Sequence record: OR885871
Reading direction: 5' to 3' (one strand)
Length of the DNA stretch: 64,000 nucleotides
DNA from: Escherichia phage vB_EcoM_JN03
Shown here piece after piece: positions 2,612 to 58,222 of this stretch (the stretch's first letter is position 1; every line of letters starts with the position of its first letter). A model generated the notes under the pieces. The model saw only the letters and a list, made by a program, of their open reading frames with translations, searched no databases and was not told the DNA's origin. Both the position numbers and the translations under genes were made by a program.

Positions 2612-4525
2612 ATGATTTCTCAATTCAATCAACCACGCGGCTCCACTTCCATAGAAGTTAACAAACAATCTATCGCTCGAAATTTCGGTGTCAAAGAAGA
2701 CGAAGTCATTTATTTCACTGTCGGTATTGATCTCAGCGGATTTAAAGTAATTTATGATGAGTCTACCCAACGGGCTTATTCTCTTCCTTCGGGTATTGTT
2801 TCAGGAACGATTGCGATAAGTCTGAACGAACAAGCCATCCTTACTCATTCTTCTGGCTCTGTTGACCTTGGGGAATTAGCAGTAAGCCGCGAAGAATATG
2901 TGACTTTACCTGGTTCTTTTAATTTCGGTCATACCATTAATGTGAAAAATGAACTTCTTGTTCACGATGATAAAAAATATCGATGGGATGGTTCTTTGCC
3001 AAAGGCAGTTGCCGCTGGTTCTACACCCGATAACTCAGGCGGTGTTGGTTTAGGTGCATGGTTGAGTGTTGGTGATGTATCATTGAGAGCGGATTTGGCT
3101 AGTGGCACACTTGGTAAAGGTGCGAATCTTTTGACATATAAGTCACAAGTATCAAACTCGGTTGCTATAAGCCAACAAATTAAAAATAGTGAAAGGGTTT
3201 CTGTTTTTGAGTATTTGGCTAAGCCTATTCCTGGTTTTGATAATGCATCAGCATTCGCTGCTATGAAAGCTGATGCTGAAGCAGGTGTTGTAATAACAGT
3301 ACCTTCAGGAGTATATGAAACATCTGAACCACTGAGATTCACAAAACCTGTTCAAATATGGTTTGATGTAGGAGTGCGAATAAAACTTACATCTGGTGCA
3401 CATGACCATGTTGTGGAAATAGATTTACGTGGACAAGATGAGGGGTATTGGGGGTATAAACCTTTCTTTGGTGGTGGCAGGGTTATTCTTGATGGTCTTG
3501 GTCATGCTAAGTACGGGCTATCACTTCGTGGCGTAATATCTGGTGGTTTTCCTGGTATTCAAGCAACCAATATAACAACTGCTGGGTTATATCTGGCTTG
3601 GACTCAATGCTGTACATACACTGATTTTATTTGCTCTAATAACGTGGAGGTTTTCACAACAAAACCCCTGCACGGTATTTTAGTAGATAAAGATAACAAT
3701 CCGTCAAATCCACGTGGTACATCATGCGATATCTTTATTAACCCATGTGTAGAGCACACTGCGGGTGATGGGTTTGTAGGACTAAGCCTGATGAACTCAA
3801 TGGTTATAAACGGAACAATCGAGGGAAACCTTGGCGCAGGCATTTCATTGGGGCATCCTACAGATAATACTTACACTGCACTGGGTAATACATTTCTTGG
3901 TATTGACCTTGAGGTGAACACGCTAACTGATATTGTGATTAACAAGTTTTCACACATGAACGAGTTCATAGGACTCAAATCAGGTTATTCATCTCCATCA
4001 GTTCAGGTCAGAGGTTTTCGTAACTATTTCTCTGGAGGTACTGTTAGCGATTTCGACTTCAGGCCAGATAGCCATGACAACCACGTACAGGATGTAACAC
4101 TTTTAGCTGAGTTTCCTGTTGTTAATGATGAAGGGATAAGAAACACTTATGAAAGATTATGGAATCTTAACAATGCTCAAGTTAACGTAAGCACAAACCC
4201 TGTTAACACAAGAAGCAATCAGCCTATAGCGGGAGGTGAGACAGTAACGTTAGACCCATATAAAGCATCCTATGTTGTATGCACCGCAACAGGAACACCT
4301 ATTAATATAGTTTCTGCCACCAAAAAATTAGATGGAGCAAGAATAGATTTGACAATTCACAATGCATCAGGAACAGATTCATTAGTCATTAACTGGGCAT
4401 CAGATATTAGAGTTGGCAATTTTACTCCTCCACCAGCAGGTAAACATAAGGGGTTATCACTAAGATATGATGCTAATTACGGTTATTGGACTGTAGTTGG
4501 TGTTGGACTGGACGCTTTATCGTGA
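2612..4525 (+). CDS. Tailspike / receptor-binding protein TSP-B (637 aa)
   Basis: N-terminus carries the conserved module shared with the other three genes (GVKEDEVIYF, SGFKVIYD, GSVDLGELAVSREEYVTL, NVKNELLVH, YRWDG, GSTPDNSGGVGLGAWLSVG); divergent C-terminal domain. Confidence 0.75.
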   Translation: MISQFNQPRGSTSIEVNKQSIARNFGVKEDEVIYFTVGIDLSGFKVIYDESTQRAYSLPSGIVSGTIAISLNEQAILTHSSGSVDLGELAVSREEYVTLPGSFNFGHTINVKNELLVHDDKKYRWDGSLPKAVAAGSTPDNSGGVGLGAWLSVGDVSLRADLASGTLGKGANLLTYKSQVSNSVAISQQIKNSERVSVFEYLAKPIPGFDNASAFAAMKADAEAGVVITVPSGVYETSEPLRFTKPVQIWFDVGVRIKLTSGAHDHVVEIDLRGQDEGYWGYKPFFGGGRVILDGLGHAKYGLSLRGVISGGFPGIQATNITTAGLYLAWTQCCTYTDFICSNNVEVFTTKPLHGILVDKDNNPSNPRGTSCDIFINPCVEHTAGDGFVGLSLMNSMVINGTIEGNLGAGISLGHPTDNTYTALGNTFLGIDLEVNTLTDIVINKFSHMNEFIGLKSGYSSPSVQVRGFRNYFSGGTVSDFDFRPDSHDNHVQDVTLLAEFPVVNDEGIRNTYERLWNLNNAQVNVSTNPVNTRSNQPIAGGETVTLDPYKASYVVCTATGTPINIVSATKKLDGARIDLTIHNASGTDSLVINWASDIRVGNFTPPPAGKHKGLSLRYDANYGYWTVVGVGLDALS

Positions 4526-51843: not shown

Positions 51844-52533
51844 ATGAAACGTTTAATCATCGGGGTTGTGCTGGCTGGTCTGGCACTTCCTGCCACCGCC
51901 AAGCTGAACTCCACAGGTGAAAAACTGTGGTCTGATCTTTCCTACTGTGCTGGGTTCTCCCAAGCTGTTGCTATAGACAAAACTGGTTCCATAGAGAACT
52001 TTGCTGAACTCTGGGCCACAGGTAACGTCACAGATGCCGTTGTAAACGCTGGTATTGAGTTTAATCGATATAAGCAAGGCGCGTTCAACCTGAAAGGATA
52101 TATGAACGACGAAGCATTTAACCGAGGAGGCATGGAGGCGAGCGATCTTATTATGACTGGTCGTATGGACACACAAGGACGAATGACCGTAAGACAGTGC
52201 CGTTCTCTCCCTTCTCCAGCATTACAAAAAGGTGTGCAGGTTGGCCGACGTCAGCTGGACCTCATCAATGATGGAAACCAATGTATCCGAGTATTTGAAT
52301 ATAGCGCTGATCAAGAATCTGATCGAAGACTGAAAAAGGAATGGCGGACTCGCGCCCTTGGCCTGAGAGCATGGCTGGTGGAAAATGATCATTATTATGA
52401 AGACCGTGTTCAGAATGGTTTGAAAGATCTTTCCACTAATTTGTCTGTCAATCTTGATGATCCCAGGCTTGCCCGTGAACTCAAGCAAACAAGAATTGAC
52501 TGTGATAATATGATGAAGGAGAACGAAAGATGA
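51844..52533 (+). CDS. Secreted (periplasmic) protein with signal peptide (230 aa)
   Basis: RBS aaggag. N-terminus MKRLIIGVVLAGLALPATA is a signal peptide with an A-x-A cleavage site. The ORF-track start at 51679 is upstream and unsupported. Confidence 0.55.
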   Translation: MKRLIIGVVLAGLALPATAKLNSTGEKLWSDLSYCAGFSQAVAIDKTGSIENFAELWATGNVTDAVVNAGIEFNRYKQGAFNLKGYMNDEAFNRGGMEASDLIMTGRMDTQGRMTVRQCRSLPSPALQKGVQVGRRQLDLINDGNQCIRVFEYSADQESDRRLKKEWRTRALGLRAWLVENDHYYEDRVQNGLKDLSTNLSVNLDDPRLARELKQTRIDCDNMMKENER

Positions 52534-52850
52534 AAATCAAAATCTTATTGTTATTCCTGTACACTTTCATGTCTTCCCAAGTATTGGCAGCTCCGGCCAG
52601 TAAGTTGAATATTTGTGCTGCTTGGTTGTCTACATATCAACAATTCCATCCGGATGATAAGGATACATCAATCCTTTTATCTGATTATGAAGGTGAATTG
52701 AAACGCCTTGATCTCTATAGTGTGGACCAGATAGAGAATGCGCTTGATTTACCCATGATGGAATCTGCTGCAGACAACAGCAAACAGACTATTAAAGATT
52801 TGACCATGTGCCGTGAAATTGCAACTAATTTCGTTGGAAATCAAAGATAG
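52530..52850 (+). CDS. Secreted protein with signal peptide (106 aa)
   Basis: MKIKILLLFLYTFMSSQVLAAPA signal peptide; start overlaps the upstream stop (ATGA). Confidence 0.5.
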   Translation: MKIKILLLFLYTFMSSQVLAAPASKLNICAAWLSTYQQFHPDDKDTSILLSDYEGELKRLDLYSVDQIENALDLPMMESAADNSKQTIKDLTMCREIATNFVGNQR

Positions 52851-53691: not shown

Positions 53692-53748
53692 TTCAATAAC
53701 ATTAGGGCGGTTATTATTAAACCGCCTTTTATTTGAGAGATCTATATT

Positions 53749-54417
53749 ATGAACAACAAGAGCCGTATTATCATCGGGGCTGACCAGGGTAATTTATATT
53801 TTGAAAGATCTGGTGTTGTCGCCCACGCTATCCTTCCCACTGGAATTTCCGTTTATTGTGTGGAACATCCTGACCCTGCAGTTAAACGTCTTTGCTATGT
53901 CTCCCGTGAAAATGGACTAATTGTATTGCCAGAAGGCGCGATTATGCGCGCTCGTTTTTGGCCGATCGATTTTAATTCCATGAGCAATAGGGAGATCGAC
54001 GCCCGTTTCTTCGTACATAATATGAACCGGACTCTGAAAAATGAAACTCAGAGAGTTGTTCATTTCGACAATGAAACTCATGGAGTGACGTTAGAATTCA
54101 GAACTCGTGGTGAAGCTCTTCAGGTGAAGAAATCAAGCTGGAAAACTGAAGGGACGTTCACATATGATTATGCGTTAATCGACAAATTGTGTAATCAGTT
54201 TCGCATTAGCCTGACTGCCAACGACGATTTAGGTCAGTATGTTGTATGGACAGCCCGTTCACCACATATGAACGGTATCATGATGGAGAGTGAAACTCGT
54301 AATCGCGCTGTGCTCCAACTGCTGCTGTTAGACGCGTATTCTCGCAACCCGTTGGAATATCTGTCTCGGGAACAGATTGATAACGCGCTTTCTCATTGTA
54401 ACCGTCTGGAGGTGTAA
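53749..54417 (+). CDS. Hypothetical protein (222 aa)
   Basis: No motif recognised. Confidence 0.45.
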   Translation: MNNKSRIIIGADQGNLYFERSGVVAHAILPTGISVYCVEHPDPAVKRLCYVSRENGLIVLPEGAIMRARFWPIDFNSMSNREIDARFFVHNMNRTLKNETQRVVHFDNETHGVTLEFRTRGEALQVKKSSWKTEGTFTYDYALIDKLCNQFRISLTANDDLGQYVVWTARSPHMNGIMMESETRNRAVLQLLLLDAYSRNPLEYLSREQIDNALSHCNRLEV

Positions 54418-54418
54418 T

Positions 54419-54706
54419 ATGTCCGGCGTATGGTGTGATGTATTGTTGGTAAGATTTTCAAACGGGATGGATAATCAGATCATTTCATTCTTTTATCCTG
54501 TTCCCTTTTCTTCTATGGGTCTGACTGTCAAGCGCGTTCTTGACATAGAAGAAAAACTCAACACGATGCCGTATATGGCGCGACCACACGTGCTGGGTTG
54601 TGAACTGTTAAACGAAATGATGATTGACGAGAATCTTGTTGAAACAATTATCACGCGTGAACAGATGAAAACCATACTGTCTCAGGGAGAACCCCATGTC
54701 GAATAA
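54419..54706 (+). CDS. Hypothetical protein (95 aa)
   Basis: ATG with RBS ggaggtg, directly after the upstream stop. Confidence 0.45.
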   Translation: MSGVWCDVLLVRFSNGMDNQIISFFYPVPFSSMGLTVKRVLDIEEKLNTMPYMARPHVLGCELLNEMMIDENLVETIITREQMKTILSQGEPHVE

Positions 54707-55016
54707 ACCGTTTGAACTTAAATTTCGCGTTTGGCATATTCCCCAGGTTCCTGGGATCGCTTTTCATGTTGAGGTTCCAACATTTGAAGAAGCGCAGCGC
54801 CTGAAGAATACTCTGGCTGATTACGACCTGTTTCAGTATAACAATAACATCAAGCCGGATTATTGTAATGCTTCCGGCGTTCAAATATACCAACATGATC
54901 TGACTGAAGAAGATCTAAATGATATGGGTCTGGATGATCGTTGGGTTGATATCGAAGATATTGACGAACTCAACGATTATTTTGATCATCTGCGTAGCAC
55001 AGGGTGGGAAATATGA
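54696..55016 (+). CDS. Small acidic protein (106 aa)
   Basis: C-terminal half is strongly acidic (EEDLNDMGLDDRWVDIEDIDELNDYFDHL). Confidence 0.45.
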   Translation: MSNKPFELKFRVWHIPQVPGIAFHVEVPTFEEAQRLKNTLADYDLFQYNNNIKPDYCNASGVQIYQHDLTEEDLNDMGLDDRWVDIEDIDELNDYFDHLRSTGWEI

Positions 55017-55222
55017 TCGGGTTAATCCGTTATCTGTTCATATTCGTAATTTCAACATTCATTTTATTTTTCTTTTTCAAATACTTGAAAGAGACTAAAA
55101 TCTACCGAAGTAAACGTTGGCGTAAACGGGTGAGGGTAACTTTCCTGCTGCTGATTTCTTCGGTTACAATAACTGCACTCACATTGGGTGCTTATATTTA
55201 CATTTTTGAAGGAGTACATTGA
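55004..55222 (+). CDS. Small two-TM membrane protein (72 aa)
   Basis: Two hydrophobic helices separated by a basic loop (KRWRKRVR); stop overlaps the start of the SPFH gene. Confidence 0.5.
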   Translation: MGNMIGLIRYLFIFVISTFILFFFFKYLKETKIYRSKRWRKRVRVTFLLLISSVTITALTLGAYIYIFEGVH

Positions 55223-56013
55223 TGTTCAAGAAACTGGTATTTGGCGCAATTATGGTCCTAGCAGCAAGCATTCTTTCGGGCTGCGGCGGTGTTATCGATG
55301 AAGGAAACGTCGGTGTTCGAACCCAATGGGGTGAAGTGGACATGAACCCTGTAACCGCAGGTATCTACACCAGTTTCGTTTCAAGTGTAGATGTCTATAC
55401 GACTAAAGAAGCCGTCGTGAGTCTGACGAAAATGACGCCAAAGGCCAAAGACAACCTGACCTTGGAAGATCTGGATGTGGATGTTTATTACACACCGAAC
55501 GTCGCAAAGGTTCCGTGGTTCCATACCAAATTTGCAGGTCAGAGCGCTGAACTCGGTGACGGCACGATAGCGGTGGGATTCAACCTGGTTAAAACCGCCG
55601 CAGCATCCTCAACGATGGACGCCGTTTCCTCTTTGGATTCTATGACAATTCACACCCAACGGGCTGAGTTAGAAAAGATGATCAAGGAACGCACCCAGCA
55701 GCAATTGGAAACTGCTGCGCCTGGCATGTTCACAATCACACGTGTGTTGGTGAAAAAGGCGCTGACAGATCCTTCGATTGAGCAATCTATCCGTGATAAT
55801 GTCATGGCCGACAAACGTTTGGATACAGCAAGAAAGAACGTTGAAATTCGCGACCAAGAAGCCAGGGCGAATCAGAAACTGACGACATCTCTGACACCTG
55901 AATATTTACAACACGAATATAACATGGTGTTGCAATCTTGCGCCAACAGCGGGAAATGTACTCTGATTGTTGATGGTTCTGGCTCAAGTAAAATGCTAAA
56001 CGTCGGCAAATAA
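55222..56013 (+). CDS. SPFH/band-7 (stomatin/prohibitin-like) domain lipoprotein
   Basis: Lipoprotein signal with lipobox LSGC. VIDEGNVGVRTQWGEV start resembles SPFH domain proteins, followed by a coiled-coil-like region. Confidence 0.55.
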   Translation: MFKKLVFGAIMVLAASILSGCGGVIDEGNVGVRTQWGEVDMNPVTAGIYTSFVSSVDVYTTKEAVVSLTKMTPKAKDNLTLEDLDVDVYYTPNVAKVPWFHTKFAGQSAELGDGTIAVGFNLVKTAAASSTMDAVSSLDSMTIHTQRAELEKMIKERTQQQLETAAPGMFTITRVLVKKALTDPSIEQSIRDNVMADKRLDTARKNVEIRDQEARANQKLTTSLTPEYLQHEYNMVLQSCANSGKCTLIVDGSGSSKMLNVGK

Positions 56014-56096
56014 ACGCTTTATTCAATAGTATTTGTTAGGTAAGCTGTAGTCCTCTTGTAGTGAAACATCGTAAACAACCAACTGGAGTAATCCGA

Positions 56097-56375
56097 ATGA
56101 ACCGTACTGATTTTATCGCCCACATCGCCCAAACCCAGGGTATGACCAAAGGCGAAGCAGAGAAGATCGTGGCATCCTTTATCAACGGCGTGAAAACTGC
56201 AGTCGCAGCTGGCCAATCTGTCCAATTCGTAGGCTTCGGCGCGTTCGAAGTTAAACATCAGGAAGCGCGCACTGGCCGCAACCCGCTGAACGGACAACAG
56301 ATCCAGATCGAAGCGAAAAATGTAGTTAAATTCAAAGTCGGTGAAGGTCTGAAAGCTGCTGCCAACGGCCAGTAA
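56097..56375 (+). CDS. HU/IHF-family histone-like DNA-binding protein
   Basis: MNRTDFIAHIA...VQFVGFGAFEVKHQEARTGRNPLNGQQIQIEAKNV aligns closely with E. coli HU ([35 protein letters not shown]). Confidence 0.85.
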   Translation: MNRTDFIAHIAQTQGMTKGEAEKIVASFINGVKTAVAAGQSVQFVGFGAFEVKHQEARTGRNPLNGQQIQIEAKNVVKFKVGEGLKAAANGQ

Positions 56376-56424
56376 TCACATCCAGAGCGGTCGCGCCTAG
56401 CACAGCGTGTTAGGCTAAAAGAGA

Positions 56425-56453
56425 AAGCCGAGGTTAATGCCTCGGCTTTTTCG
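56425..56453 (+). terminator. Rho-independent terminator (aaagccgaggttaatgcctcggcttt + ttcg)
   Basis: Strong hairpin plus T-run after the HU-like gene. Confidence 0.7.
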
Positions 56454-56500
56454 TTGTTGGGATTCGGGTAAACTATAACAGAATCCAAAGGAGGAACAAC

Positions 56501-58222
56501 GTGACAGCATTTAATCAACACCGAAAGGCGATTGACGCCATAGGCCGTAAGGTTCCTATGGAAGAAATACAACGCCTTGCCAAAGATGAATTCCCATATG
56601 ACAAAGCGAACCCAGGCCAGATGGAATGCATCGTCGAAGCCATAGATGCGCTTATCAACAAAAAGGTTAAACATGTCATCATTGAAGCTCCGACAGGCGT
56701 CGGTAAATCTTTGATTGGCACTACCATTCATAAAGTGATTCGTCATCTGGTTTTACAGGCTGATCCTTATGGGCAATTTCGCACTTCTATCAGCACCCCG
56801 ACCAAAGGTCTGCAAGATCAGTATGCTGCTGAAAAAGCAGTATCGATCGATATCCTGAAAGGCAAGAAGAATTATCGTTGCCACGTACATCCAGATGTGT
56901 ATTACAATGCTGTCCAATGCCGTATAGCATGCCGTGACGGGCATTGTAGCAAACGCCGCTGTCCTTATGTACAGGCGCGTAATTTGTGGACGGATATTTC
57001 ATCATTGCGTTGTACTAATGCTGCCATGATGATCGAAATGTGTACAACAATCTGCATGAAGCCCGAAAACCGTTCCGATATGCTGATCCTTGACGAGTGC
57101 CATAAAATGCCCTCTACGCTCCTAGAGCACACGATCATGGAATACAATACAAAGGCCGTGGAGGGGCTGCGTTCTATCCCTGAGGGCAAGGAGATCGTCT
57201 CTACCATTGGTGATATCGTAGAACGCACCAAGGACTATGTCCTGGGCAAGTTATATTCTTTGTCTGGTGAACTACATTCAATGTTTGAAGACCTCCATCT
57301 CAAAGTAGAAAATTTGTTGGAAGTCCTTGAAGAATTGGTCGAAGATGATCGCTTGAGTGAAAGCCAAGTGATGAAACTCGCAGACATTATAGATGTCTTG
57401 CATAACTTGAGTGATTATTGCGGTATTATGTCACAAACCCAAGCAAGTACATTTATTGTGCAAGAAAAGGGGGAAGATTTTATCCGGTTTAAACCTGTTA
57501 TGCCTTCTGATGTAAGTGAATTCGGGTTATTCCGAAAAGCCGATTATCACGTTCATATGTCAGCAACGATCTGTGGTATAGATTCTTATGCTCGTTCATT
57601 GGGTATTCGACAGGGGGATTATCATTCCATTCAGATCGGCAACCCTATCCCAATTGAAAACAGAAAAGTCAACTATATGCCCATAGTGAAGATGACTAAC
57701 AATATGGGCGACTATGAAATGAAAAGGTTGACGGAATATATTGATGAAATAATCGCGTTCCACCCAGGTCAGTCCGGCATTATCCATACAGTGAGTTATG
57801 ATCGCGCCTTGGCAATACAAAAATTTAGTAAATATCAGAATTTTATCCATGTTCCGCGCACCCGAAAGGCGTTGATGGATATTATGGAAAATGCTTTTAG
57901 AACAAAGTCCCCATGTGTCATTGCCAGTCCGGCTATGGAAGAAGGTTATGATTTCAAAGGGGATTACAGCCGTTTCCAAATACTGATCAAAGTCCCTTAT
58001 GATTATCTGGGTGATCCACTGATAGCACATATCAATTCAGTGGATCCGTCGGCATACTTCCGCAACGCAGTACTGCGCATTGTTCAAATGTGTGGGCGTT
58101 CGGTCAGGGGTGTTGATGACTGGGCTGCGACATACATCATTGATTCATCCTTTGAATCTCTTATGATGCGCAACCCAGAATTCTTCCCAACCTGGTTCAC
58201 CGATGCAGTGTTTGAGGTTTAA
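56501..58222 (+). CDS. DinG/XPD-like (Rad3-family) SF2 helicase with Fe-S cysteine cluster
   Basis: GTG start with RBS aaaggagg. Walker A APTGVGKS, DECH box (ILDECHKM), Cys-rich insert (CHVHPDVYYNAVQCRIACRDGHCSKRRC). Confidence 0.7.
   Translation: MTAFNQHRKAIDAIGRKVPMEEIQRLAKDEFPYDKANPGQMECIVEAIDALINKKVKHVIIEAPTGVGKSLIGTTIHKVIRHLVLQADPYGQFRTSISTPTKGLQDQYAAEKAVSIDILKGKKNYRCHVHPDVYYNAVQCRIACRDGHCSKRRCPYVQARNLWTDISSLRCTNAAMMIEMCTTICMKPENRSDMLILDECHKMPSTLLEHTIMEYNTKAVEGLRSIPEGKEIVSTIGDIVERTKDYVLGKLYSLSGELHSMFEDLHLKVENLLEVLEELVEDDRLSESQVMKLADIIDVLHNLSDYCGIMSQTQASTFIVQEKGEDFIRFKPVMPSDVSEFGLFRKADYHVHMSATICGIDSYARSLGIRQGDYHSIQIGNPIPIENRKVNYMPIVKMTNNMGDYEMKRLTEYIDEIIAFHPGQSGIIHTVSYDRALAIQKFSKYQNFIHVPRTRKALMDIMENAFRTKSPCVIASPAMEEGYDFKGDYSRFQILIKVPYDYLGDPLIAHINSVDPSAYFRNAVLRIVQMCGRSVRGVDDWAATYIIDSSFESLMMRNPEFFPTWFTDAVFEV

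What the first reader, a model, noticed from the sequence alone, without database searches (positions are those of the whole stretch)
55004..56013. Coupled small 2-TM protein and SPFH-domain lipoprotein: a phage-encoded membrane module
A 72-aa protein with two transmembrane helices overlaps the start of a lipoprotein with an SPFH/band-7-like domain. Bacterial SPFH proteins typically pair with small membrane partners (NfeD/YuaF-like) and organise membrane microdomains or regulate membrane proteases. A phage copy of such a pair, next to two signal-peptide proteins, suggests a module acting on the host envelope (superinfection exclusion, lysis timing or protease control).
Basis: inference. Interest (0 to 1): 0.65.

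Follow-up and report, generated by a model that had tools for sequence, protein, structure and literature searches.

The report
Phage SPFH lipoprotein with hairpin partner
A Salmonella/E. coli phage of the CBA120/Vi01 group carries a small two-helix membrane protein coupled to a lipid-anchored prohibitin-like scaffold protein; the scaffold gene was already annotated, but the small partner turns out to be a strictly phage-specific companion across very distant phages, and the pair's function is still unknown.

Summary
The window is a Kuttervirus (CBA120/Vi01-like) genome. A 69-aa two-TM gene (true start ATG 55013) is translationally coupled to a 263-aa lipoprotein (ATG 55222, lipobox LSGC, Cys21). 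The mature lipoprotein is a complete SPFH protomer: Pfam Band_7 E=1.2e-12, and the AlphaFold model matches full-length prohibitin, erlin, HflK/C and stomatin at E~1e-12.

The NfeD analogy fails. The partner has no OB-fold domain and no NfeD hit in 22 family members. The SPFH domain faces the periplasm, a class that does not pair with NfeD.

New here: all 19 distinct lipoprotein-type lineages from phage contigs have the hairpin gene immediately upstream or nearly so. 79 of 80 chromosomal bacterial homologues lack it. Every hairpin homologue whose context was read is followed by a Band_7 gene.

Neighbours are replication and early genes, not lysis or virion genes. Natural Kuttervirus isolates carry deletions or frameshifts, so the pair is dispensable.

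The SPFH annotation dates from 2011, and no held paper reports a function. Best reading, by inference: a phage-built periplasmic SPFH ring or cage over an inner-membrane hairpin, acting on the host envelope. Moderate interest.

The parts
54696..55016 (+). Upstream gene for a P22 gp17-like protein (Pfam PF17420, named 'superinfection exclusion gene product 17'). It is context only. Its stop overlaps the hairpin gene's ATG (ATGA).
   Evidence: Pfam E=1e-49 and PHROG 1510. It is linked to the pair only in Ackermannviridae.
55013..55222 (+). Hairpin partner gene, 69 aa plus stop (CBA120 orf127A equivalent). TM1 is aa 3-22 (55019-55078). The basic cytoplasmic loop is aa 23-41 (55079-55135). TM2 is aa 42-61 (55136-55195). 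The short tail IYIFEGVH is aa 62-69 (55196-55219).
   Evidence: PHROG 11680, E=1.2e-46, positions 1-69 of 69. Family alignment A2. Charge distribution across the family: loop 112 K/R, termini 15 K/R in 22 sequences.
55210..55214 (+). AGGAG ribosome-binding site for the lipoprotein gene, lying inside the end of the hairpin gene.
   Evidence: Sequence. It lies 7 nt before ATG 55222.
55222..56013 (+). SPFH (Band 7) lipoprotein gene, 263 aa plus stop (CBA120 orf126 equivalent).
   Evidence: Pfam Band_7 E=1.2e-12, PHROG 200 'lipoprotein' E=1.7e-57, 58 homologue clusters.
55222..55284 (+). Signal peptide with lipobox L18-S19-G20-C21. The Cys21 codon is 55282-55284. Residue +2 is Gly, so there is no Asp inner-membrane retention signal.
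   Evidence: The lipobox is conserved in the alignment.
55285..55767 (+). SPFH1/SPFH2 alpha/beta domain, aa 22-182.
   Evidence: AF2 secondary structure, Foldseek PDB hits.
55771..55947 (+). Long helix (aa 184-223) and second helix (aa 226-242). They correspond to the wall and roof helices CC1/CC2 of SPFH cages, but are short.
   Evidence: Longer relatives carry an 11-residue insertion here.
55939..55959 (+). Conserved C-x5-C pair (Cys240, Cys246), followed by the conserved strand T-L-I-V-D-G (aa 247-252). It is a candidate periplasmic disulfide at the crown.
   Evidence: Alignment A1, residue positions.
53704..53728 (+). Terminator-like hairpin. It probably marks the upstream end of the five-gene, overlap-coupled unit 53749-56013 that ends with the pair.
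   Evidence: ORF overlaps are shown.

Best explanation
This is a non-essential, two-gene accessory membrane module of a virulent Kuttervirus, expressed together with early and replication genes.

Shown:
- Gene 1 encodes a 69-aa helical hairpin. Its strongly basic loop should sit in the cytoplasm. Its few-residue N- and C-termini, the tail being acidic with a His, should face the periplasm.
- Gene 2 encodes a lipoprotein whose mature part is a complete but compact prohibitin/HflK/C-type SPFH protomer in the periplasm: lipid anchor, SPFH1/2, one long wall helix, one roof helix and a C-terminal strand with a C-x5-C pair.
- The two genes are translationally coupled. The pairing is strictly conserved in phages and absent from bacterial homologues.

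Inferred:
- The lipoprotein oligomerises, like every structurally solved SPFH protein, into a closed ring or cage. The cage sits on the periplasmic leaflet of the cytoplasmic membrane.
- The hairpin is its membrane-integral subunit. It lies under or within the ring and probably keeps a lipoprotein that has no Asp(+2) retention signal at the inner membrane.
- Together they fence off a patch of host inner membrane during infection.

Most speculative step: the output. I judge it most likely to be protection or insulation of the infected cell's envelope. That could mean exclusion of superinfecting phage DNA or envelope-damaging agents, or preservation of membrane integrity. Lysis and virion structure are less likely.
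For: Fold and architecture.

Periplasmic orientation:
- Lipobox conserved in nearly all of the 48 closest clusters.
- More distant relatives are TM-anchored in its place.
- The conserved C-x5-C pair is consistent with an oxidising compartment.

Hairpin topology: 112 K/R in the loops against 15 in the termini across 22 sequences.

Coupling: ATGA and TGATG overlaps.

Linkage:
- All 19 lipoprotein-type clusters (70% identity) from phage contigs have the hairpin. It is immediately upstream in all but L031, where one ORF intervenes. In L032 it was identified by its two-TM architecture and position only (profile E=0.2).
- 79 of 80 bacterial chromosomal homologues lack it. The exception, L040, is a 113-kb phage-like contig.
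- Fisher p=1.7e-12 for lipoprotein-type only.
- A reverse search with the hairpin profile found 11 clusters. Those whose context was read are all followed by Band_7.
- Synechococcus phage B3 also has a 54-aa hairpin directly upstream of its SPFH gene.

Timing and role:
- Neighbours in 19 diverse loci are RNase T-type exonuclease, RNA ligase, phosphoesterase, RegA, clamp loader and helicase. No lysis or structural family is among the listed ones.
- Only 3 spectra against 924 for the capsid protein in CsCl-purified Sajous1 virions.

Dispensability:
- The GG32-type deletion removes both genes.
- The bering frameshift breaks the SPFH gene.
- The pair is absent from Taipeivirus, Agtrevirus and Limestonevirus.
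Against: - No experiment or structure prediction of the complex was possible. Oligomerisation, physical contact and membrane localisation are all inferred.
- By the E. coli +2 rule (established knowledge), Gly at +2 predicts Lol-dependent transfer to the outer membrane. A hairpin with almost no periplasmic exposure could not reach it there.
- 28 bacterial lipoprotein-type homologues manage without a hairpin.
- One lipoprotein-type phage SPFH (Acinetobacter phage Herod, 24% identity) has none.
- The TM-anchored cyanophage B3 protein does have one. So 'the hairpin replaces the missing TM anchor' cannot be the whole story.
- Nothing ties the module to exclusion. The only hint is the adjacent gp17-like gene, which is linked to the pair only in Ackermannviridae.
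Confidence: 0.4

Rival explanations
1. FtsH-directed mimic. The lipoprotein acts as a phage-made HflK/C or prohibitin analogue. It caps or corrals the periplasmic side of the host FtsH protease, possibly with the hairpin inserted beside the FtsH TM helices. This would change degradation of host or phage membrane proteins and regulators.
For: - The best structural matches are the FtsH or m-AAA-associated cages prohibitin and HflK/C.
- The weak N-terminal profile match in PDB is to HflC.
- It has the same periplasmic orientation as HflK/C.
- The prokaryotic periplasm-facing SPFH3/4 subfamilies are the ones linked to FtsH (PMC2636767).
- Small hydrophobic peptides are known FtsH modulators (my own knowledge, not tested).
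Against: - Only 14-17% identity to HflK/C.
- No NCBIfam HflK or HflC hit.
- It is a single SPFH gene, whereas HflK/C is an obligate heterodimer.
- The wall helices are much shorter than in HflK/C, so the cage may be too shallow for the FtsH periplasmic domain.
- Bacterial homologues show no FtsH or hfl neighbourhood.
Confidence: 0.2
2. Two separate exclusion factors that merely travel together. The lipoprotein is sorted to the outer membrane and blocks a receptor or entry step from the periplasmic side, in the manner of T5 Llp, Cor or TraT. The hairpin acts on its own at the inner membrane, like T4 Imm.
For: - Gly at +2 predicts outer-membrane sorting.
- T4 Imm is likewise a roughly 83-aa two-TM protein.
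- A prophage SPFH protein of Pasteurella is reported in outer-membrane vesicles (PMC9872710). Its relation to this clade was not tested.
- A gp17-like 'superinfection exclusion' gene sits next door.
Against: - Strict co-occurrence, fixed gene order and translational coupling over 19 lineages argue for one machine rather than two independent factors.
- There is no sequence similarity to Imm.
- More than half of the bacterial relatives are TM-anchored, that is inner-membrane proteins.
- The known receptor-blocking lipoproteins are small and are not SPFH proteins.
Confidence: 0.15
3. Lysis-timing device. The hairpin is a holin- or antiholin-like protein whose oligomerisation in the membrane is restrained or triggered by the SPFH scaffold.
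For: - Small two-TM proteins are typical of holins.
- SPFH proteins regulate channels in other systems (my own knowledge).
- One of 22 hairpins gives a marginal LydA-holin hit at E=0.03.
Against: - The pair is never found next to endolysin, holin or spanin families among the listed neighbour families of 19 loci. It is embedded among replication and early genes.
- The predicted N-out/C-out topology with a very basic loop is unlike class II holins.
- Natural deletants are viable plaque-forming phages.
Confidence: 0.07
4. A canonical SPFH-NfeD operon captured from a host.
For: Two adjacent membrane genes, one of them SPFH. Many bacterial SPFH1/2/5 genes pair with nfeD.
Against: - The partner has no NfeD domain in any of 22 members and is too short for one.
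- The SPFH domain is periplasmic, whereas NfeD-linked SPFH proteins face the cytoplasm.
- The closest bacterial homologues have no partner.
Confidence: 0.02

Closest known systems
E. coli HflK/HflC cage (with FtsH) and mitochondrial prohibitin PHB1/2 cage
   Same: Full-length protomer architecture: membrane anchor, SPFH1/2, wall helix, roof helix and C-terminal strand. Foldseek E about 1e-12 over roughly 240-250 columns. The domain lies on the non-cytoplasmic side of the energy-transducing membrane.
   Different: It has a lipid anchor instead of an N-terminal TM helix. It is a single gene rather than a heterodimeric pair. The helices are much shorter. Identity is only 14-17%, and there is no HflK/HflC family hit. 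It comes with a dedicated hairpin partner. No link to FtsH has been shown.
Stand-alone periplasm-facing SPFH proteins of Betaproteobacteria, Steroidobacteraceae and Gammaproteobacteria (unnamed clade; 124 clusters at E<=1e-30 in 1.84 billion representatives)
   Same: True homologues at 33-44% identity over the full length. They share the same length and the motifs GNVGV, TPKA-DNL and TDPSIEQSI. Some are also lipoproteins.
   Different: They are chromosomal, with ordinary and variable neighbours such as a sensor kinase, ABC-2 permease and PgpA. 51 of 80 are TM-anchored. None has the hairpin partner, except one phage-like contig.
QmcA(YbbK)-YbbJ and other SPFH-NfeD pairs
   Same: A two-gene operon of an SPFH scaffold plus a membrane partner. 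QmcA matches the fold at E=1e-8.
   Different: QmcA-YbbJ protrudes into the cytoplasm. NfeD has an OB-fold domain, and long forms also have a ClpP-like protease. The phage partner has neither.
T4 Imm and Sp (superinfection immunity and spackle)
   Same: Early, dispensable membrane and periplasmic proteins of a large virulent phage. Imm is an 83-aa two-TM protein.
   Different: There is no sequence relationship (hhalign probability 0.1%). The T4 genes are not adjacent, and neither is an SPFH protein.
Other virus-encoded SPFH/Band 7 ORFs (T4-like 44RR, Aeh1 and RB43; RaK2-like jumbo phages; Schitoviridae GIB1; Vibrio, Rhizobium and Streptomyces phages; giant viruses)
   Same: The same superfamily, annotated but with no known role.
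   Different: Most belong to other SPFH clades. Whether they have hairpin partners was checked for only two: B3 has one, Herod does not.

Membership tests
SPFH / Band 7 superfamily (PF01145) | Profile match above the curated threshold | tested here: met
   48.6 bits against a cut-off of 23.6, E=1.2e-12, residues 24-208.
SPFH / Band 7 superfamily (PF01145) | SPFH alpha/beta fold followed by a long C-terminal helix, as in the solved cage protomers | tested here: met
   AF2 pLDDT 87. Foldseek hits to prohibitin, erlin, HflK/C, stomatin, QmcA and flotillin at probability 1.00.
SPFH / Band 7 superfamily (PF01145) | N-terminal membrane attachment | tested here: met
   A lipobox here, replaced by a TM helix in more distant relatives.
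SPFH / Band 7 superfamily (PF01145) | Assembly into a large homo- or hetero-oligomeric ring or cage | not testable with these tools
   Only single-chain prediction is available. The conserved C-terminal strand and helices are compatible with it.
Bacterial lipoprotein (signal peptidase II substrate) | Basic n-region, hydrophobic core, lipobox [LVI][ASTVI][GAS]C within about 15-25 residues of the start | tested here: met
   MFKK, then the hydrophobic core, then L18-S19-G20-C21. Conserved in nearly all of the 48 closest clusters.
Bacterial lipoprotein (signal peptidase II substrate) | Inner-membrane retention signal (Asp at +2 in Enterobacteriaceae) | tested here: not met
   +2 is Gly. Among homologues only P0026 has Asp. 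Default sorting would be to the outer membrane.
Bacterial lipoprotein (signal peptidase II substrate) | Actual lipid modification | not testable with these tools
   Needs globomycin sensitivity or palmitate labelling.
NfeD family (partner protein) | C-terminal OB-fold (NfeD) domain | tested here: not met
   The partner is 55-69 aa. No NfeD or other credible Pfam hit in 22 members and no PDB hit.
NfeD family (partner protein) | Operon with a cytoplasm-facing SPFH1, SPFH2 or SPFH5 protein | tested here: not met
   The SPFH partner is a secreted lipoprotein. No NfeD homologue is known for SPFH3, SPFH4 or SPFH6-12.
HflK/HflC | Match to the HflK or HflC equivalog models | tested here: not met
   No such NCBIfam hit at E<=1.
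HflK/HflC | Two paralogous SPFH genes forming a heterodimer | tested here: not met
   There is one SPFH gene, in the window and in all related loci.
HflK/HflC | Binding and enclosure of FtsH | not testable with these tools
   Needs a pull-down or a structure.
Two-component spanin (Rz/Rz1) | An i-spanin with a large periplasmic coiled-coil domain, plus a small o-spanin lipoprotein, in a lysis cassette | tested here: not met
   The hairpin exposes only a few residues to the periplasm. The lipoprotein is a 243-residue SPFH protein. No lysis families are among the listed neighbours.
T4 Imm family | Sequence or profile similarity to Imm | tested here: not met
   hhalign probability 0.1%.
Known anti-phage defence system proteins (PADLOC) | Match to any PADLOC model | tested here: not met
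   No hit for the hairpin, the SPFH protein or the gp17-like protein.

The most novel reading that the evidence does not exclude
The hairpin defines a previously undescribed, phage-specific class of SPFH partner unrelated to NfeD. Large virulent phages of Proteobacteria, and at least one cyanophage, would use it with a lipid-anchored mini-prohibitin to build a virus-made cage on the periplasmic face of the host inner membrane. That cage would control a host membrane process, such as FtsH proteolysis or DNA entry by competing phages, during infection.
Probability: 0.35. Interest if true: 0.65.

Novelty: new variant of a known kind. Interest (0 to 1): 0.45.

Why it matters
SPFH/Band 7 genes are scattered through phage and giant-virus genomes. 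The papers that mention them say their role is unclear.

This analysis shows that one clade comes with an obligatory partner that its bacterial relatives lack. That gives a concrete handle: a two-gene cassette that can be cloned, co-purified and deleted, with natural deletion mutants already in collections.

If the pair forms a cage on the inner membrane, it would be a compact model (a 243-residue mature protomer plus a 69-residue hairpin) for how SPFH scaffolds recognise clients. It would also be a new way for phages to manipulate the host envelope.

Kuttervirus phages are widely used for Salmonella and E. coli O157 biocontrol. An exclusion or envelope-protection function would bear on cocktail design.

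Tried and rejected
- **NfeD-like partner:** rejected.
- **Homology of the hairpin to T4 Imm:** rejected.
- **Known defence or anti-defence family:** no PADLOC hit. NCBIfam gave only noise.
- **Direct sequence match of the SPFH protein to solved structures:** only marginal. phmmer gave E=1 to an unrelated capsid protein. The profile gave E about 0.1 to HflC and stomatin. Fold comparison was needed.
- **Conserved neighbour of the bacterial homologues** (NfeD, FtsH or other): none. The frequent 'clusters' were shadow ORFs over the SPFH gene itself. The real neighbours occur in at most 11 of 80 loci and are housekeeping genes.
- **Module including the two upstream signal-peptide proteins:** rejected. 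They are separated by 2.2 kb and a terminator-like site, and are not conserved elsewhere.
- **Virion component:** rejected on spectral counts and gene context.
- **'The hairpin simply replaces a missing TM anchor':** weakened by bacterial lipoprotein homologues without a hairpin and by cyanophage B3, which is TM-anchored yet has one.
- **Promoter scan:** the number of sigma-70-like sites equals the shuffle expectation, so it is uninformative.
- **Literature searches** for a function of phage SPFH proteins or for Kuttervirus transcriptomes found nothing usable.
- **My first greedy gene-calling of neighbours** failed in high-GC loci because of shadow ORFs, and was redone on the + strand only.
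Full report
**Identity of the window and the genes.**
The region 54000-57000 is 97-98.5% identical to Kuttervirus genomes (Ackermannviridae): Salmonella phages SPTD1 and SJ3, and Escherichia phage CBA120. In CBA120 the two genes are orf127A ('hypothetical protein') and orf126 ('lipoprotein'). They lie between a gp17-like 'superinfection exclusion' gene and an HU-like DNA-binding protein gene, followed by a helicase gene.

Both ORFs are present in the window. The starts need small corrections.
- The small gene starts at ATG 55013. This gives 69 aa and a full-length match to PHROG 11680. Its ATG overlaps the gp17-like stop (ATGA).
- The lipoprotein starts at ATG 55222. It is preceded by AGGAG at 55210-55214, and its ATG overlaps the small gene's TGA by one base.
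- Five genes from 53749 to 56013 are packed with overlaps, downstream of a terminator-like hairpin at 53704-53728.

**The lipoprotein.**
Pfam Band_7 is matched at E=1.2e-12, well above threshold. The signal peptide ends in L18-S19-G20-C21 with Gly at +2.

A homologue search returned 58 clusters. Nearly all of the 48 closest are 259-273 aa with a lipobox at the same place. The more distant ones carry an N-terminal TM helix instead. That is what one expects if the domain works outside the cytoplasmic membrane.

An AlphaFold2 model built on 40 homologues has mean pLDDT 87. It shows the beta-rich SPFH domain (residues 21-182), a 40-residue helix (184-223), a second helix (226-242) and a less confident C-terminal strand.

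Foldseek against the PDB aligns 230-257 of the 263 residues at E 1e-12 to 1e-8. The targets are whole protomers of the prohibitin, erlin, HflK/C, stomatin and QmcA cages. So this is a complete, unusually compact cage-type SPFH protomer, not just an isolated SPFH domain. Sequence similarity to those proteins is marginal, and no HflK or HflC equivalog model is matched.

A C-x5-C pair (Cys240, Cys246) just before the conserved strand TLIVDG is retained through most of the lipoprotein clade. This fits a periplasmic disulfide.

The clade is small. An exhaustive profile search of 1.84 billion representatives found 124 clusters at E<=1e-30.

**The small protein.**
It has two hydrophobic helices (3-22 and 42-61) joined by a loop with ten Lys/Arg. 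The tail is IYIFEGVH.

I collected the ORFs directly upstream of SPFH homologues in other loci and aligned 22 of them. They are 55-69 aa and only 8-28% identical to the window protein. They share one plan:
- M-x-x-R at the start;
- TM1;
- often T-P-F/Y-F-K;
- a basic loop;
- TM2;
- a short tail, usually with Asp/Glu followed by His/Arg/Gly.

Across the family the loops hold 112 Lys/Arg, against 15 in the two termini. By the positive-inside rule the loop is cytoplasmic and both termini are periplasmic.

No member hits NfeD or any other Pfam family credibly. The profile hits nothing relevant in the PDB. It is also unrelated to T4 Imm.

**Linkage, the main new result.**
Contexts of four homologues at 45-49% identity all showed a 63-68-aa two-TM ORF immediately upstream.

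A scan of IMG/VR gave 32 loci. Together with the other phage-like loci they fall into 20 clusters at 70% identity.
- All 19 lipoprotein-type clusters have the hairpin.
- It is directly upstream in all but L031, where one ORF is inserted between the two genes.
- In L032 it was identified by its two-TM architecture and position only (profile E=0.2).
- The one TM-anchored cluster (L037) has none.

A scan of one genome per bacterial species gave 80 loci at 33-44% identity. They are mostly Betaproteobacteria, Steroidobacteraceae and Gammaproteobacteria, on contigs up to 4 Mb.
- 51 are TM-anchored and 29 are lipoproteins.
- Only one has the hairpin: L040, a 113-kb Massilia contig whose pair closely resembles those of roughly 110-kb viral contigs.
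- Fisher's exact test gives p=1.7e-12 for lipoprotein-type loci and p=3e-18 overall. The lineages are not phylogenetically independent and the bacterial set was not de-replicated, so these values overstate independence.
- The bacterial genes have no conserved neighbour. The commonest real neighbours occur in at most 11 of 80 loci: a PAS/GAF sensor kinase, an ABC-2 permease and PgpA.

The reverse search with the hairpin profile found only 11 clusters, all labelled 'hypothetical' where a source names them. The one new context I read again had Band_7 directly downstream.

Further away, Synechococcus phage B3 has a 54-aa hairpin (MLARTLSLL...) directly upstream of a TM-anchored SPFH protein of 22% identity. 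Acinetobacter phage Herod, a lipoprotein of 24% identity, has none.

**Context and dispensability.**
I scanned 148 neighbouring ORFs from 19 diverse phage loci. The recurrent families were RNase T-type exonuclease, RNA ligase and metallophosphoesterase. Clamp loader, RegA, RecA, DNA ligase and helicase each occurred once. No endolysin, holin, spanin or structural family is among the 25 most frequent PHROG or Pfam families listed.

In CsCl-purified Sajous1 virions the protein gave 3 spectra, against 924 for the major capsid protein. That is the level of replication enzymes and other likely contaminants.

Within Ackermannviridae the slot between the gp17-like and HU genes is variable.
- Most Kuttervirus genomes carry the pair.
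- Phage bering has an extra 102-aa LysM ORF, an intact hairpin gene and a frameshifted SPFH gene.
- GG32, and by the same partial match SeHz-1 and BRM 13314, carry the LysM ORF and a remnant. The remnant fuses hairpin codons 1-17 to SPFH codons of about 197-263.
- Klebsiella Taipeivirus has only the LysM ORF.
- Agtrevirus and Limestonevirus align only from just past the SPFH stop, so they lack the pair.
- Erwinia phage Bue1 has the pair, with the hairpin unannotated.

The module is therefore accessory, and it has been lost repeatedly.

**Literature.**
- The SPFH domain of this gene was listed for PhiSH19 in 2011.
- SPFH ORFs were noted in T4-like phages in 2006.
- They have also been noted in jumbo phages, a Schitoviridae phage and a Burkholderia phage. 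The authors say the role is unknown or offer guesses.
- Foldseek against BFVD shows Band 7 proteins in many phages and giant viruses.
- I found no paper in the held library that mentions the hairpin partner or reports a function.

**Interpretation.**
The structural part of the best explanation rests on solid sequence and fold evidence, plus the general behaviour of SPFH proteins. All those solved form rings or cages (entries; summary).

The strict and phage-specific linkage, the fixed order and the translational coupling make a physical complex the most economical reading.

Where the complex sits is uncertain.
- For the inner membrane: the hairpin must be there, and more than half of the bacterial relatives are TM-anchored.
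- Against: the lipoprotein lacks the enterobacterial Asp(+2) retention signal.
- One attractive idea is that the hairpin holds the lipoprotein at the inner membrane. However, bacterial lipoprotein relatives manage without it, and the TM-anchored B3 protein has one.

The functional output is not constrained by any data here beyond three points: envelope-directed, expressed with early and replication genes, and dispensable in the laboratory.
- I rank envelope protection or exclusion first.
- An FtsH-directed HflK/C-like role comes second, because the nearest structural relatives are the FtsH-associated cages and share the orientation.
- An outer-membrane blocking lipoprotein with an independent Imm-like hairpin comes third.
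- Lysis timing comes fourth.
- A canonical NfeD pair and a virion role are effectively excluded.

**Verdict.**
The SPFH annotation is already known. The NfeD analogy is wrong. The conserved phage-specific hairpin partner appears to be undescribed and makes the module experimentally tractable. It is a new variant of a known kind, of moderate interest.

Noticed in passing
window 54696-55016: The gp17-like gene shares 68-72% nucleotide identity over about 160-230 bp with gene 17 of temperate P22-like phages (P22, ST160, SW-70). It seems to be a gene shared between temperate podoviruses and virulent Ackermannviridae. It is translationally coupled to the hairpin gene.
   Followed up: partly
window 55016-56118 slot; L120 (GG32), L129 (bering), L128 (Klebsiella phage May): The slot between the gp17-like and HU genes is a hot spot. 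A 102-aa LysM-domain ORF, labelled 'endolysin' in RefSeq, is inserted in some Kuttervirus genomes and is the only occupant in Taipeivirus. GG32-type phages keep an in-frame hairpin-SPFH remnant of 83 aa.
   Followed up: yes
window 51844-52533 and 52530-52850: These are two overlapping genes for proteins with cleavable-looking signal peptides (229 aa and 106 aa). The second matches PHROG 3843, labelled 'Rz-like spanin'. It has neither a lipobox nor a TM anchor, so the label looks doubtful.
   Followed up: no
L121 (Erwinia phage Bue1, MG973030), between annotated CDS 2042-2341 and 2998-3777: The 64-aa hairpin ORF directly upstream of the Bue1 SPFH gene is not annotated in the GenBank record. The gap also holds other small unannotated ORFs.
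   Followed up: partly
L127 (Synechococcus phage B3) 1276-1440 and 1486-2304: gp43 is a 54-aa two-TM hairpin beginning MLAR, as several proteobacterial-phage hairpins do. It precedes a TM-anchored SPFH protein (gp44). The pairing may therefore extend to cyanophages.
   Followed up: partly
L006 2334-2549 (and phage 44RR ORF097c/098c in PMC1524935): In a T4-like lineage a 71-aa pilin-like protein with an N-terminal methylation motif follows the SPFH gene directly. This may be a third envelope component in that lineage.
   Followed up: no
hit H48, OR844945.1: A 7.9-kb record named 'Enterococcus phage Efm 3-10' carries an SPFH gene 98.9% identical to the Kuttervirus one. It is probably a mislabelled or contaminant contig.
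   Followed up: no
L040 (Massilia sp. TN1-12, 112,962-bp contig) and L003 (Burkholderia gladioli, 111,078-bp contig): Contigs in bacterial isolate assemblies carry the phage-type pair among phage genes (L003: RNA ligase, RNase T). Their size matches viral contigs of about 110 kb. They are likely phage genomes co-assembled with, or carried by, the isolates.
   Followed up: partly
alignment A1, columns 238-248: The Kuttervirus clade lacks an 11-residue segment of the long helix that is present in many relatives. That is a hendecad-sized indel in the presumed cage wall.
   Followed up: no
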